Sequence record: MK977694.1
DNA length: 64,000 bases
Source of the DNA: Escherichia phage vB_EcoM-Sa45lw
Strand: one strand, 5' to 3'
The notes below the pieces were generated by a model. That model worked only from the letters and a program-made list of their open reading frames with translations. It did no database searches and had not been told where the DNA came from. This document shows positions 26,350 to 41,295 of the stretch, in pieces (position 1 is the first letter of the stretch; every line of letters starts with the position of its first letter). The position numbers and the translations under genes were made by a program.

Positions 26350-26658
26350 TTATTTACCAATAAATTGGAGTAAATGCTCAACTTTCATACCATTAACAGA
26401 AATCAATTTGTCAATAGAAAAACCTCGCCACTCGCCAAGCTCAACATCAAATACTGGAATCATGTCAGTAGATTCTTTCCGAGTAGATTCAGTCAATTTA
26501 CCAGTTTGCATAGTTGGCATAAAGTCTGCATCACGCGTACCTTTCATAGTACGAATAGTACCATCAGACTTTTCAAAAACTACGTTTGAAACACCCATGG
26601 ACAGTTTAGTTTTCAAAATTTCACGAATTGCTACTTTCTGCTCAGTTGTCAGTTTCAT
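26350..26658 (-). CDS. Hypothetical protein (31.1 position)
   Basis: 102 aa ORF. Confidence 0.55.
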   Translation of the reverse strand: MKLTTEQKVAIREILKTKLSMGVSNVVFEKSDGTIRTMKGTRDADFMPTMQTGKLTESTRKESTDMIPVFDVELGEWRGFSIDKLISVNGMKVEHLLQFIGK

Positions 26659-26895
26659 TTATTTACCTATCACAGTTTTAATATGAGTTGTTCCACGTTC
26701 TTTAAGGGTGGAAAGTAATTTTTGGCATTTTTCTAAATCAGATTTCCAACTATATGGTCTATCAATACTAGTCCAATCAGTTTTATAATACTGTTTCCAT
26801 TTAGAGAAAAAATATTTCTTATACTCTACAGCAAACGAGATGTTCTCGTTAGAATAAGAACTAATTGCTGTAAGCTTTACCAAACGAAATTTCAT
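26659..26895 (-). CDS. Hypothetical protein (31.2 position)
   Basis: 78 aa ORF. Confidence 0.5.
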   Translation of the reverse strand: MKFRLVKLTAISSYSNENISFAVEYKKYFFSKWKQYYKTDWTSIDRPYSWKSDLEKCQKLLSTLKERGTTHIKTVIGK

Positions 26896-29293: not shown

Positions 29294-30493
<1,200 letters not shown>

Positions 30494-30497
<4 letters not shown>

Positions 30498-30724
30498 TTA
30501 TTTTTCTCAACCAATGATTGAATATAATCATGCAGGTCTTTAGATGCTTTACCCCACTTATTTTGATATTCATTTTTGAGATTAGCGCGTGATTGAGCTA
30601 ATAAAACATCATTAGTTGGAGGTAAAGATTCTAATCGTTGAATCTGTCGTCCATAAATCATTGCAGCCATCTCGGATTCATAAATTAATCCTTTTAGATG
30701 TTCAAATTGATACCATGAAATCAT
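30494..30724 (-). CDS. Hypothetical protein
   Basis: 76 aa ORF. Confidence 0.5.
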
Positions 30725-37355: not shown

Positions 37356-37572
37356 ATTGTTCTTCCGTTAAAACAGTAATATCGTAGTAACAGTCAGAAG
37401 AAGTTTTAACTGTGGAAATTTTATTATCAAAATACTCACGAGTCATTTTATGAGTATAATATTTTTTGCCATAAATGATAATAGGCTGATTTGGTCCTGG
37501 AACTTCTAACTCACTTGGATTAGGAAGTGTAAAAAGAACTACACCAGAAGTATCTTTAAATCGTAAAATCAT
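37309..37572 (-). CDS. Hypothetical protein (nrdA.2 position)
   Basis: ATG at 37572 (ORF-track start is TTG); 87 aa. Confidence 0.45.
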
Positions 37573-37592
37573 ATATCCTCGCAATAATAAAA

Positions 37593-38453
37593 TTACACCG
37601 CCATCTTTCCTTTAATAGGAGGATGTGATTCATAGTTGTTAAGAACAAAATTATGAGGCTTTGCAAATTGACTCAACCAAAATACCTGCGATTCTGTGTC
37701 CCATTCATCAAATTCATCTGGAAATTTTAATTGTAATTCGCATAAATCCATAGGTTCACGACATAAAATTTCTTTACATTGTTCTACGTGATTCATATAG
37801 ATATGAGTATTACCACCAGAAAATATCAAATCTCCCGGAATAAGATTACACATCTTAGCTACAATATGAACTAACGTAGCATATGATGCAATATTAAATG
37901 GAAGACCGAGGAAAACATCTACCGAACGTTGATACCACTGAAGGTCAAGGTATCCATTACGCACATTAAACTGATAGAACATATGACAAGGCGGTAATGC
38001 CATATATTTAAGTTCAGCTGGATTCCACGCAGAAACAATTTGACGCCTATCATTTGGCAGTTTTTTAATACGATCAATAACTTCTATAATTTGATCTACA
38101 CCGCCAAAATCACGCCACTGTTTTCCATAAATTGGACCAAGTTCACCGCTATGGTATCCTAAATCTTTTGCTTGATTTTCGTAATTTTCATCCCAGACTG
38201 TTTTGCCTTGAATTAATGAATCATGTTGAATTAATCGCAAATCATTGACATTTGTGCTTCCTGATAAAAACCATATTAGCTCAGCAATGCATGCATTCCA
38301 GGCGAGCTTTTTAGTTGTTACTGCAGGAAAACCTTTGGTTAAATCCCAACGCAATTTAGTACCGAACAAAGCAATTGTTCCTGTACCCGTTCGGTCATCG
38401 GTTTCATAGCCATTTTCAAAAATGTCTTTAATTAAATCTTGGTATTGTTTCAT
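37593..38453 (-). CDS. td: Thymidylate synthase, uninterrupted
   Basis: Continuous 286 aa ORF with active-site LPPCH; no intron. Confidence 0.97.
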
Positions 38454-38498
38454 TTAGTACCTTATATAAATTATAATACATTTTATGAAGCTAAATAA

Positions 38499-38846
38499 TC
38501 AATACGGTTTAGCATCAAATTTTCTCTCAATTTCAGGCGTGAAATATAATTCTTTACCGCGTTTGGAAAAGCGACCAATAATATGATAATTATTCTCATC
38601 AAACGTGATATTACCAATATCCATAGCTTTCAACCAAATATCGATATTTCTATCCAGCTTTATGTCAAAATTCCAATACGGAGAACTATTACCGAAAATA
38701 CTACAAGCGGATTCAGTGAAACAACTGCTATAAATCTTGTCTTTAGGAACTACTAATTGATAGACACCTTTAATAAACTGAGGACCCTGCCACTTTGGCT
38801 GTTTCTCATCTTTTTCTAATAGAATAGGGTAATAATTAAAATTCAT
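38499..38846 (-). CDS. Hypothetical protein inserted between frd and td
   Basis: 115 aa ORF MNFNYYPILLEKDEKQPKW...; no recognisable motif. Confidence 0.6.
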   Translation of the reverse strand: MNFNYYPILLEKDEKQPKWQGPQFIKGVYQLVVPKDKIYSSCFTESACSIFGNSSPYWNFDIKLDRNIDIWLKAMDIGNITFDENNYHIIGRFSKRGKELYFTPEIERKFDAKPY

Positions 38847-38865
38847 ATTTCCGCCACGCGTTATT

Positions 38866-39824
<959 letters not shown>

Positions 39825-39877: not shown

Positions 39878-40237
39878 TTATATTATCTCCCATCGAAAAG
39901 GGTCAGGAGCATATCCGATAGAATTAATCATTTTAACTAAAGTTACCATTCCTTTGTTAACTGCTTGTGCGATTTCATCAAAAACTTCATCGCTATCATC
40001 ATAAAGGTCATTAAAAAGTTCTAACACGTTCTTCTGAACTTTTAATTTACAGCCAACAAATTCGCCTACAGTAAATTCGTTTCCGCCAACTCCAGCGTAA
40101 AACGTAATTACACCAGTTAATGGTCTTTCACTAGAACATAGGTCGTGTGATAAATTAATATAAGCCGTCCCGGGTGCAGTTTTAAGTTGGCAACGAATAC
40201 TTACTCGAGCAATTCCAGCTACACGAATGTCAGACAT
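39878..40237 (-). CDS. Hypothetical protein (frd.2 position)
   Basis: 119 aa ORF. Confidence 0.55.
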   Translation of the reverse strand: MSDIRVAGIARVSIRCQLKTAPGTAYINLSHDLCSSERPLTGVITFYAGVGGNEFTVGEFVGCKLKVQKNVLELFNDLYDDSDEVFDEIAQAVNKGMVTLVKMINSIGYAPDPFRWEII

Positions 40238-40631: not shown

Positions 40632-40892
40632 TTATTTTTGAATTTTATCGAGCCACTTACCAAGCTTAATCATTTCTTTAGTAGCCTTTTCCATACTTCT
40701 GAACTTAACCAATAGAGGATAGGTATCGACACCCATAACTAAACTGGTTACAAGACTGTGTTCACCCACAAGCCATAATGAATACGTTTGAATATCGAGC
40801 CCGTAATTTCTGTCTTTATGGACCCGTACACCCATCACTTCAAATTTCTCACTAGCTTTTTCTACCGCATCCAGGAAATCATCTTTAGTCAT
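40632..40892 (-). CDS. Hypothetical protein
   Basis: 86 aa from ATG at 40892, one nt after the stop of the upstream ORF. Confidence 0.5.
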   Translation of the reverse strand: MTKDDFLDAVEKASEKFEVMGVRVHKDRNYGLDIQTYSLWLVGEHSLVTSLVMGVDTYPLLVKFRSMEKATKEMIKLGKWLDKIQK

Positions 40893-40893
40893 A

Positions 40894-41295
40894 TTAGGCC
40901 TTAAAAGTTTTTCGCAAAAGTTCAATGATTTCATCTACATTGTTTTCATCAACAATGCAGTGAATTTTTGTCACGTCAGAAACCTTGTCTTCGATTTCAT
41001 CTTCTTCAGAAGTCGGTTCTTTATATTCGCGGAAACAATAAAACTCTTCTTCACGAAGTTCAAAATAATCATCATCCATACCATCATCATTATAGATTTC
41101 ACCATTAGCACAAATGATTTCGGTTACATAATCAAAGCCATCTAAACTTAATATTGATTTAACTTCAAACCAACCACCATTTTCTTGAATGATGCCGACC
41201 ATACTAGCATTTAATGAACTAATATCAATGAAAGATTTAATATGACGTGGATTTAACTCGTATTTTTTTTCCAACTTCCACTTTGATTTCCTCAT
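40894..41295 (-). CDS. Hypothetical acidic protein
   Basis: 133 aa, net charge about -15, D/E-rich C-terminal half. Confidence 0.55.
   Translation of the reverse strand: MRKSKWKLEKKYELNPRHIKSFIDISSLNASMVGIIQENGGWFEVKSILSLDGFDYVTEIICANGEIYNDDGMDDDYFELREEEFYCFREYKEPTSEEDEIEDKVSDVTKIHCIVDENNVDEIIELLRKTFKA

What the first reader, a model, noticed from the sequence alone, without database searches (positions are those of the whole stretch)
38454..38865. Extra 115 aa ORF inserted at the frd-td junction
In T4, frd and td overlap directly as I recall it. Here a 348 bp ORF (38499-38846) sits between them with about 20 and 45 bp linkers, in the same orientation. The protein has no motif I recognise. 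An insertion at an otherwise fused junction of two essential nucleotide-metabolism genes is the signature of a small mobile or accessory cassette.
Basis: partly seen in the sequence, partly recalled or inferred. Interest (0 to 1): 0.55.

Follow-up and report, generated by a model that had tools for sequence, protein, structure and literature searches.

The report
Accessory gene between frd and td
The extra 115-codon gene between the dihydrofolate reductase and thymidylate synthase genes is real, but it is an already annotated gene of unknown function carried by most T4 relatives (including T2 and T6), so T4 is the exception and this is not a new mobile element.

Summary
ORF 38499-38846 (- strand, 115 aa) lies between frd and an intronless td, with 19- and 45-nt linkers. 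In T4 the two genes overlap by ATGA.

It is not an oddity. T2, T6 and 362 phage records carry it at 90% or higher protein identity. In a sample of T4's close relatives about two thirds had it, about a fifth had a different 68-aa gene, and about a tenth had T4's fused junction.

More distant T4-like genera carry homologues at the same spot, often as two tandem paralogues plus the 68-aa gene.

The gene is under purifying selection (dN/dS 0.05-0.13). It has no Pfam, PDB or nuclease signature. A confident AlphaFold model shows only a weak resemblance to OB-folds.

The block is bounded by TAAATGAAA, the frd-stop/td-start motif. This allows precise gain or loss by short-repeat recombination. Fused haplotypes nest among ORF-bearing ones, so T4 probably lost the gene. 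Gene-tree incongruence also points to older lateral exchange.

Verdict: ordinary, already catalogued, function unknown. Interest is low.

The parts
38866..39447 (-). frd (dihydrofolate reductase), 193 aa; stop codon TGA at 38866-38868
   Evidence: PF00186, E=3.6e-19; RB51 annotation
38864..38872 (-). Left copy of the 9-bp direct repeat TAAATGAAA. It contains the frd stop codon (TGA) and a fossil-looking 'ATG AAA TAA' mini-frame.
   Evidence: (D2)
38847..38865 (-). 19-nt linker (AATAACGCGTGGCGGAAAT) with a weak Shine-Dalgarno-like GGCGGA. In slur03 and the Mosigvirus alleles, two extra A's let frd read through this linker for 11 more codons.
38499..38846 (-). ORF115 (= RB32ORF229c, PHROG 1928). 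A 115-aa accessory protein with a predicted OB-like beta-barrel and unknown function.
38454..38498 (-). 45-nt linker between the ORF115 stop and the td start. It carries the td ribosome-binding site (TAAGGT). Bases 38463-38494 are a 32-nt segment that is absent from the Mosigvirus alleles.
38448..38456 (-). Right copy of the 9-bp direct repeat TAAATGAAA. It contains the td start codon (ATG at 38451-38453).
   Evidence: (D2)
37593..38453 (-). td (thymidylate synthase), 286 aa, uninterrupted (no group I intron, unlike T4)

Best explanation
ORF115 is a genuine accessory gene under purifying selection. It belongs to the RB32ORF229c / PHROG 1928 family, whose normal home is the interval between frd and td in T4-like phages.

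In several other genera the interval holds a translationally coupled array: a 115-type gene, a tandem paralogue and a 68-aa gene. In the T-even phages the boundary exists in three states: nothing (T4), ORF115 (most phages, including T2, T6 and this window) or the 68-aa gene.

The ORF115 block encodes no mobility enzyme. It is bounded by an 8-9 bp direct repeat of the frd-stop/td-start motif TAAATGAAA. Recombination between these short repeats can remove the block, or reinsert it from a circle or a co-infecting genome, and regenerate exactly T4's ATGA overlap without damaging frd or td.

Within Tequatrovirus the fused allele is most likely a recurrent, precise loss. Deeper in the history, the T-even copy was exchanged laterally with a lineage like the metagenomic contigs L010/L011.

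The protein is a small, mildly basic, aromatic-rich beta-barrel with OB-like topology and no catalytic residues. It most probably acts as a dispensable binding or adaptor protein (for single-stranded nucleic acid or a protein partner), co-expressed with DHFR and TS early in infection.

Shown: the gene is real, the site is polymorphic, synteny holds across genera, the repeat is present and mobility domains are absent. Inferred: the direction of the gain and loss events, the recombination mechanism and the protein's function.
For: Identity and distribution:
- The window is about 99.8% identical to wV7/RB51.
- It is present in T2 and T6.
- tblastn finds 563 phage records, one place each: 362 at 90% identity or higher and 201 below 60%, the latter in Klebsiella, Enterobacter, Citrobacter, Edwardsiella and Salmonella T4-likes.

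Synteny:
- The order frd-[115 type]-[paralogue]-[68 aa]-td, or a subset of it, is seen in Entb_45, Merlin, Mexia, L010 and L011.
- Paralogy is supported by hhalign (98.7% probability, E=1.5e-16).
- The alternative ORF68 allele is visibly similar to the array's 68-69-aa gene in the alignment.

Three alleles:
- In an evenly spaced sample of relatives, the 31 rows closest to T4's junction were 3 fused, 21 ORF115 and 7 ORF68.

Selection:
- dN/dS is 0.05-0.13.

Repeat:
- TAAATGAAA lies at 38448-38456 and 38864-38872. Deleting between the two copies gives T4's junction exactly.

Loss:
- The closest relatives of G28's fused junction (±200 bp) are all ORF115 carriers (98.1% to RB32/RB33). Other fused alleles are no closer (97.0%).

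Lateral exchange:
- Window versus L010/L011: ORF115 is 63-66% identical, against frd 47-48, frd.1 45-47, DUF7247 33 and frd.2 35-37.
- L011 is closer to Entb_45 in td (90), DUF7247 (65) and DUF5417 (59), but not in the 115-type gene (50).

No mobility or catalytic signature:
- Pfam, NCBIfam, PADLOC and PDB sequence searches are all empty.
- The invariant residues are only Q, W, G, G, K, G.

Fold:
- AlphaFold2 pLDDT is 90.9, with strand and helix order beta1-beta2-beta3-alpha-beta4-beta5.
- The weak top matches are mostly OB-folds.
- Family pI is 6.8-9.4 and the window copy is 17% aromatic.
Against: - The direction of events is not settled. The 9-mer is a common gene-boundary motif (10 copies in the window against 3.6 expected, 3-4 of them at real boundaries). 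My rough estimate is a few percent probability that the flanking repeat is coincidental.
- ORF115 has the same base composition as its neighbours (GC 32.5%, GC3 29%), whereas L011 is 39-44% GC. There is no compositional sign of foreign origin, and no donor closer than 66% identity was found.
- Synonymous divergence is ambiguous. Among Tequatrovirus carriers it is lower than in the flanks (0.08-0.10 against 0.23-0.88). Between Tequatrovirus and Mosigvirus alleles it is 0.63-0.89, which is higher than frd (0.29-0.54).
- Nothing tests binding, interaction partners or phenotype.
- T4 grows without the gene.
Confidence: 0.6

Rival explanations
1. Purely vertical history. The 115-type gene has sat between frd and td since the common ancestor of the Tevenvirinae. 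The T-even ORF115-only and ORF68-only alleles are leftovers of the ancestral array after different deletions. T4 and the other fused genomes simply lost everything. No insertion or lateral acquisition ever occurred, and the 9-bp repeat is only the chance microhomology that the deletion used.
For: - Synteny holds across genera.
- Both ORF115 and ORF68 match members of the same array.
- All array genes are joined by ATGA-type overlaps, which supply microhomology for whole-gene deletions.
- The Dhakavirus C6 fused junction equals the UP19 ORF68 allele minus the segment between its AATGA repeats.
- The composition of ORF115 is native.
- The extended-frd variants (slur03, Mosigvirus) end in ...EF* inside ORF115, just as L010 does.
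- Deletion between short direct repeats is well documented in T4 (my own knowledge of the rII deletion literature).
Against: - The 115-type gene groups the window with L010/L011 (63-66%) although every neighbouring gene groups L011 with Entb_45.
- The left repeat copy leaves a fossil td start (ATG AAA TAA) after the frd stop. That is expected from an insertion into a fused junction and is otherwise a coincidence.
- None of the 31 sampled records closest to T4's junction carried both ORF115 and ORF68.
Confidence: 0.3
2. The ORF is a free-standing homing endonuclease or another self-mobile element, as the 'putative homing endonuclease' label in some BASEL-collection records suggests, and it drives its own insertion between frd and td.
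For: - Four BASEL-collection records (AugustSocin, TadeuszReichstein, KarlGJung, AlbertHofmann) are annotated this way.
- T-even genomes do hold free-standing endonuclease genes between nucleotide-metabolism genes, for example mobE between nrdA and nrdB in T4.
- The gene is a presence/absence polymorphism and is flanked by a 9-bp direct repeat.
Against: - No GIY-YIG, HNH, LAGLIDADG or transposase match was found in Pfam at E<=1 for any of 21 family members, in NCBIfam, or in PDB sequences and folds.
- No His, Cys, Asp or Glu residue is invariant.
- At 115 aa it is shorter than T4's annotated full-length homing endonucleases MobE (141 aa) and I-TevI (245 aa).
- There is one copy per genome, always at the same locus.
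- The block has no terminal inverted repeats.
- Other records give the same protein conflicting labels such as 'glucose-1-phosphate adenylyltransferase', which points to annotation noise.
Confidence: 0.03
3. Function-level rival. The protein is not tied to nucleotide metabolism or replication. It is a conflict gene, such as an inhibitor of a host defence (for example one that depletes or senses nucleotides) or of a competing phage, and it merely happens to sit in a permissive, early-expressed slot.
For: - It is variable between close relatives, dispensable (T4 lacks it) and laterally exchanged.
- It is small, has no catalytic motif, and occurs in tandem diversified paralogues that evolve fast: 36% identity between Merlin and Mexia, where Frd is 65%.
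- These are typical traits of phage counter-defence genes (general knowledge).
Against: - Position and translational coupling to frd are strictly conserved across genera.
- Purifying selection is strong within the T-evens.
- No homology to any known anti-defence or defence protein was found.
- There is no experimental hint in the literature searched.
Confidence: 0.3
4. The ORF is a non-functional relic or a chance reading frame in spacer DNA.
For: It has no known domain, and T4 does without it.
Against: - dN/dS is 0.05-0.13.
- It is intact in all 563 records, each covering at least 80% of the query.
- The family is conserved, with invariant residues.
- The structure prediction is confident (pLDDT 90.9).
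Confidence: 0.02

Closest known systems
RB32ORF229c and its orthologues (PHROG 1928), the hypothetical protein between frd and td in RB32, RB51, T2, T6, wV7 and others
   Same: It is the same gene. The window is 99.7-99.8% identical in DNA to RB51 and wV7. The protein matches PHROG 1928 at E=3e-36. The position and the 9-bp flanking repeat match the GenBank notes.
   Different: Nothing differs. The family has no assigned function, and no paper mentioning it was found.
PeSL-flanked ORFan cassettes and 'mini-circles' of RB49/phi1 (Arbiol et al. 2010, PMC2839356)
   Same: In both cases a single small non-essential ORF is present or absent between conserved genes of close T4-type relatives. In both it is bounded by a repeated boundary sequence, and recombination between the copies can excise or reinsert the ORF without any dedicated enzyme.
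   Different: PeSLs are ~100-bp promoter plus stem-loop modules in hyperplastic regions. Here the repeat is only 8-9 bp (a stop/start/Lys motif). No stem-loop or terminator is found and promoter-like sites do not exceed chance. The ORF is read through from the frd operon. No circle has been demonstrated.
Free-standing homing endonuclease genes of T-even phages (seg and mob genes, e.g. mobE between nrdA and nrdB in T4)
   Same: These are also intergenic presence/absence polymorphisms between conserved nucleotide-metabolism genes.
   Different: ORF115 has no nuclease domain or motif, is smaller, and is a conserved syntenic family with tandem paralogues across genera.
OB-fold ligand-binding domains (SSB/RPA, HIN, Cdc13/Teb1, RecO N-domain, S1)
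   Same: The predicted order beta1-beta2-beta3-alpha-beta4-beta5 matches. OB-folds dominate the weak structural matches. The conserved aromatic and basic residues (W19, Y29, R92, F93, K95) fall in the beta1-beta2 loop, on beta2 and on the beta4-beta5 hairpin.
Deletion between short direct repeats in phage T4 (rII deletion studies; from my own knowledge, not checked here)
   Same: A precise deletion whose end points lie in a 9-bp direct repeat would convert the window allele into T4's junction.
   Different: Here the event is inferred from natural alleles and was not observed. The reverse event, a gain, may also have occurred.

Membership tests
RB32ORF229c / PHROG 1928 family | Significant full-length match to the family profile | tested here: met
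   phrog_1928 E=3.1e-36, residues 4-111 of 115. The window DNA is 99.7% identical to RB51 across the region containing its annotated RB32ORF229c CDS.
RB32ORF229c / PHROG 1928 family | Located between frd and td on the same strand | tested here: met
   the same holds in the distant genera
Free-standing homing endonuclease (GIY-YIG / HNH / LAGLIDADG) | Recognisable nuclease domain or catalytic motif | tested here: not met
   No Pfam hit at E<=1 for ORF115, and only scattered chance hits for the 21 family members. NCBIfam is empty. No invariant His, Cys, Asp or Glu. No PDB nuclease match.
Free-standing homing endonuclease (GIY-YIG / HNH / LAGLIDADG) | Cleaves the ORF-less allele and is inherited preferentially in crosses | not testable with these tools
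   Needs biochemistry or mixed infections
Transposable element (IS / MITE-like) | Target-site duplication | tested here: inconclusive
   A 9-bp direct repeat flanks the block (D2). However, the motif is a common gene-boundary sequence and could equally be a deletion substrate.
Transposable element (IS / MITE-like) | Terminal inverted repeats and/or a transposase; several copies or several insertion sites | tested here: not met
   There are no inverted repeats at the ends of the block. The only nearby 9-nt inverted pair (38463-38471 / 38868-38876) is AT-only and one arm lies in frd. No transposase domain was found. There is one place per genome in 563 records.
PeSL cassette (Arbiol et al. 2010) | Flanked by a sigma-70-like early promoter plus a stem-loop terminator module | tested here: not met
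   No terminator-like sites were found. There were 6 promoter-like sites against 5.7 expected in 38300-39600, none flanking the ORF in PeSL fashion.
OB-fold nucleic-acid-binding proteins | Five-stranded barrel with the order beta1-beta2-beta3-alpha-beta4-beta5 | tested here: met
   DSSP on the model gives E6-12, E27-34, E62-64, H68-77, (E80-82), E86-96, E99-104, with pLDDT 90.9. This is a prediction only.
OB-fold nucleic-acid-binding proteins | Significant structural superposition on solved OB-folds | tested here: not met
OB-fold nucleic-acid-binding proteins | Binds single-stranded DNA or RNA | not testable with these tools
   Needs EMSA or similar

The most novel reading that the evidence does not exclude
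The 115-aa family, with its tandem paralogue, is an unrecognised beta-barrel fold family that works with phage DHFR and thymidylate synthase. It could be an adaptor of the dNTP-synthesising complex, or a counter-measure to nucleotide-targeting host defences. In addition, the stop/start boundary motif TAAATGAAA would serve as an enzyme-free 'attachment site' that lets whole genes be swapped in and out of an operon precisely. That would be a minimal version of the PeSL mini-circle mechanism.
Probability: 0.15. Interest if true: 0.55.

Novelty: already known. Interest (0 to 1): 0.22.

Why it matters
The main value is as a correction. T4 is not representative of its relatives at the frd-td boundary, so 'extra relative to T4' does not mean 'inserted' or 'mobile'.

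A modest residual interest remains for three reasons:
- A conserved, selected protein family confined to the DHFR-TS interval of T4-like phages has no known function and no convincing structural relative.
- Three alleles at one operon boundary, all joined through ATGA/TAAATGAAA overlaps, give a clean natural example of precise whole-gene gain and loss by microhomology in lytic phage genomes.
- Several public records mislabel the gene as a homing endonuclease or a sugar-nucleotide transferase.

Tried and rejected
- Homing endonuclease or transposon reading: rejected. No domains, motifs, inverted repeats or extra copies were found.
- PeSL cassette: rejected. There is no promoter plus stem-loop module.
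- Sequence searches for function gave nothing: Pfam, NCBIfam, PADLOC, PDB sequences, a profile search of 5.8 billion proteins and a scan of 1.8 billion representatives. Only about 20 clusters were found, all small stand-alone proteins with no domain fusions. One 838-aa hit (P0021) is a TPR protein and a chance match.
- Rfam scan of 37500-39600: only a chance hit at E=0.2.
- Middle (MotA-type) promoter in the 45-nt linker: the canonical pattern TGCTTYA-N11-13-TANNNT is enriched in the window (10 against 2.4 expected), but no match falls in the frd-td interval. The linker has only AGCTTCA, so this is not claimed.
- Synonymous-divergence dating of the block against its flanks: mosaic and inconclusive. 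My first dS run for frd was invalid because of indels and was redone with codon alignments.
- Base composition as a sign of foreign origin: none found.
- Literature: no paper mentions RB32ORF229c, and the accessory-gene screens I looked at do not cover this locus.

Full report
**1. Observation**

The ORF listing finds ORF 38499..38846 on the - strand, with an ATG start and 115 aa. It lies between frd (38866..39447, -) and td (37593..38453, -). Pfam confirms both neighbours: DHFR_1 at E=3.6e-19 and Thymidylat_synt at E=3.9e-94. The linkers are 19 nt and 45 nt.

In T4 (NC_000866) frd spans 145109-145690 and td ends at 145112. The two genes therefore overlap by ATGA with nothing between them.

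**2. What the window is and how common the ORF is**

The 2.2-kb interval is 99.7-99.8% identical to phages wV7, RB51 and RB68.

tblastn with the protein finds 563 phage records, one place in each. Of these, 362 are at 90% identity or higher and 201 are below 60%. T2 (AP018813, 138742-139089) and T6 (AP018814, 143968-144315) both carry it.

I searched 200 bp around T4's junction and listed 60 records evenly spaced down the ranking. The 31 rows closest to T4's junction split as follows:
- 3 were fused. One of these is a T4 fragment record.
- 21 had the 348-bp ORF. Nineteen of these had a ~416-bp insert and two had a ~387-bp insert.
- 7 had a ~206-bp insert.

The next 12 single-piece rows were fused. 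The few whose taxonomy I checked or know are Dhakavirus or Gaprivervirus. So T4's arrangement is a minority allele among its closest relatives.

**3. A three-allele site, and an older array**

The 206-bp insert is a different gene of 68 aa. It is joined to frd by ATGA and to td by TAATG. Examples are CHD16UKE1 (Tequatrovirus) and UP19 (Dhakavirus). The Dhakavirus C6 is fused. ORF68 occurs in 238 records, 135 of them at 90% identity or higher.

More distant T4-like phages hold homologues of ORF115 in the same slot, translationally coupled to frd:
- Klebsiella phage Mexia has frd-[105 aa]-td.
- Enterobacter phage Entb_45 (Kanagawavirus) and Citrobacter phage Merlin (Moonvirus) have two tandem copies.
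- Entb_45 and the metagenomic contig L011 have frd-[111-115 aa]-[113-119 aa]-[68-69 aa]-td. L010 shows the same order as far as its contig end, which falls just after the second copy.

The second copy is a true paralogue of the first (hhalign probability 98.7%, E=1.5e-16). The 68-69-aa gene is visibly similar to the T-even ORF68 in the alignment. Both T-even inserts are therefore members of an array whose home is the frd-td interval.

**4. Is it a functional gene?**

Yes, for four reasons:
- dN/dS between alleles is 0.05-0.13.
- All 563 tblastn matches cover at least 80% of the query.
- The start is conserved: relatives at 63-66% identity also begin MNFNYYPILLE.
- A 21-member alignment has invariant Q16, W19, G27, G91, K95 and G97, and near-invariant L9, Y29, N79, R92, F93 and F102.

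The family is small and confined to T4-like phages. A scan of 1.8 billion representative proteins found 19 clusters, one of which was a chance TPR hit. A profile search added no larger or fused proteins.

**5. What the protein might be**

There is no hit in Pfam, NCBIfam, PADLOC or PDB sequences. PHROG 1928 is listed as 'unknown function'.

AlphaFold2 run on the alignment gives a confident model, with pLDDT 90.9 and pTM 0.84. The element order is beta(6-12), beta(27-34), beta(62-64), helix(68-77), beta(86-96), beta(99-104). This is the OB-fold order.

Family members are neutral to basic (pI 6.8-9.4). The window copy is 17% Trp+Phe+Tyr. There is no conserved His, Cys, Asp or Glu.

My inference is low-confidence: a non-catalytic binding or adaptor protein, co-translated with DHFR. 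The labels 'putative homing endonuclease' and 'glucose-1-phosphate adenylyltransferase' in some records have no support.

**6. The borders**

On the coding strand the window reads ...GTATA**TAAATGAAA**TAACGCGTGGCGGAAAT-ATG[ORF115]TGA-TTATTTAGC...TATAAGGTAC**TAAATGAAA**CAATACC... T4 reads ...GTATATAAATGAAACAATACC.... The 9-mer copies lie at 38864-38872 and 38448-38456, 416 bp apart (D2). Deleting between them yields T4's junction exactly. The left copy leaves 'ATG AAA TAA' after the frd stop, which looks like a duplicated td start.

The motif is not rare. The window has 10 copies against 3.6 expected, and 3-4 of them sit at genuine gene boundaries. A chance repeat is therefore possible. My rough estimate is a few percent.

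The ORF68 allele is bounded by the shorter AATGA in the same way.

The borders vary between alleles:
- slur03 and the Mosigvirus alleles have two extra A's (TATAAAAATGAAATA...). frd therefore reads on for 11 codons and ends ...EF* inside ORF115, as in L010.
- The Mosigvirus alleles lack 32 nt of the 3' linker.

There are no inverted terminal repeats, no stem-loop or terminator, and no excess of promoter-like sites.

**7. Gain or loss?**

Evidence for loss in T4-like fused genomes:
- G28's fused junction has flanks 97-99% identical to ORF115 haplotypes on both sides.
- T4's first 131 nt of td are only 91-92% identical to everything else.
- In a ±200-bp search from G28's junction, the nearest records after itself are all ORF115 carriers (98.1% for RB32/RB33). 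Other fused phages (HY03, FL18) are at 97.0%.

Fused alleles are thus not one clade. They nest among carriers, as expected from recurrent precise deletion.

Evidence for older lateral movement:
- The window's ORF115 is 63-66% identical to that of L010/L011. The adjacent genes are only 47-48% (Frd), 45-47% (frd.1), 33% (DUF7247), 35-37% (frd.2) and 27-28% (frd.3).
- Against Entb_45, Merlin and Mexia the neighbours are about equally distant, yet ORF115 drops to 47, 30 and 32%.
- L011 is closer to Entb_45 than to the window in td (90 against 78), DUF7247 (65 against 33) and DUF5417 (59 against 46). In the 115-type gene the reverse holds (50 against 63).

Evidence against a recent acquisition:
- ORF115's GC (32.5%) matches its neighbours, whereas L011 is 39-44%.
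- dS between the Tequatrovirus and Mosigvirus alleles (0.63-0.89) is as large as or larger than that of frd.
- The Mosigvirus carriers have a Tequatrovirus-like frd 3' end (93-96% identity there against ~85% over the whole gene). Ordinary homologous recombination in the flanks therefore also moves the block between genera.

**8. Comparison with what is known**

The gene itself is already catalogued. The nearest described mechanism is the PeSL cassette and mini-circle model for RB49/phi1 (PMC2839356). That model shares the logic of repeat-bounded single-ORF gain and loss without a dedicated enzyme. It does not share the ~100-bp promoter plus stem-loop module. Free-standing homing endonucleases share only the genomic situation. 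The OB-fold resemblance is a lead and does not establish membership.

**9. Verdict**

The feature is an ordinary, previously annotated accessory gene at a known polymorphic boundary. T4 is the exception and probably a secondary loss. Two things remain open: the protein's function, and whether the boundary motif really mediates cassette exchange.

Noticed in passing
L006 1300-1506 (CHD16UKE1); L008 1290-1496 (UP19); not in the window: A third allele of the frd-td boundary is a 68-aa, very basic (pI 10.3) protein joined to frd by ATGA and to td by TAATG. It occurs in 135 T-even and Dhakavirus records (including JS98 and JS10) and at ~80% identity in Klebsiella phages. It also occurs at ~43% identity in unrelated Phapecoctavirus-type phages such as phAPEC8. 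It has no Pfam, NCBIfam or PADLOC hit.
   Followed up: partly
window 39444-39824, 39878-40237 and 40632-40934 (- strand): Three further ORFs upstream of frd (126, 119 and 100 aa) have no counterpart in T4's frd-frd.1-frd.2-frd.3 stretch. RB51 annotates them as ncORF236c, 237c and 239c. The 119-aa one matches the DUF7247 gene of L010/L011. The whole frd-to-gene-32 stretch is indel-rich relative to T4.
   Followed up: partly
window 37593-38453 and the downstream nrdA/nrdB region (RB51 annotation, L001): td here is uninterrupted, whereas T4 has the group I intron with I-TevI. In the near-identical RB51 record, nrdB follows nrdA directly, with no mobE gene and no nrdB intron. T6, ECO4 and CHD16UKE1 show that the td intron occurs together with either insert allele.
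   Followed up: no
window 38463-38494 (- strand): A 32-nt piece of the ORF115-td linker (TTAGCTTCATAAAATGTATTATAATTTATATA) is exactly what the Mosigvirus alleles lack. It contains a near-miss MotA box (AGCTTCA) followed by TATAAT/TAATTT, so it might be a small middle-promoter module for td. The canonical pattern does not match here.
   Followed up: partly
window 38847-38872; L015 (slur03), L007 and L012 (Mosigvirus): A 2-nt length difference in an A-run (TATAAATGA against TATAAAAATGA) decides how frd ends. Either it stops at ...VYK*, or it runs on 11 codons (...VYKNEIxxGGKYEF*) and overlaps the ORF115 start. This gives Frd proteins of 193 against about 204-205 aa in close relatives.
   Followed up: partly
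whole window: TAAATGAAA (stop, start, Lys codon) occurs 10 times against 3.6 expected, 8 of them on the - strand, and several copies lie at real gene boundaries (for example 30492-30500 and 26653-26661). The MotA-type pattern TGCTTYA-N11-13-TANNNT occurs 10 times against 2.4 expected.
   Followed up: partly
public records MZ501047, MZ501052, MZ501089, MZ501106, PQ571308, NC_054937: The same 115-aa protein is labelled 'putative homing endonuclease' or 'putative glucose-1-phosphate adenylyltransferase' in some records. Neither label is supported by any search made here.
   Followed up: yes
L004 2002-2516 (Enterobacter phage Entb_45): frd is annotated as two pseudogene fragments. Translation shows a frameshift in an otherwise intact DHFR, so this is either a sequencing error or a real inactivation.
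   Followed up: no
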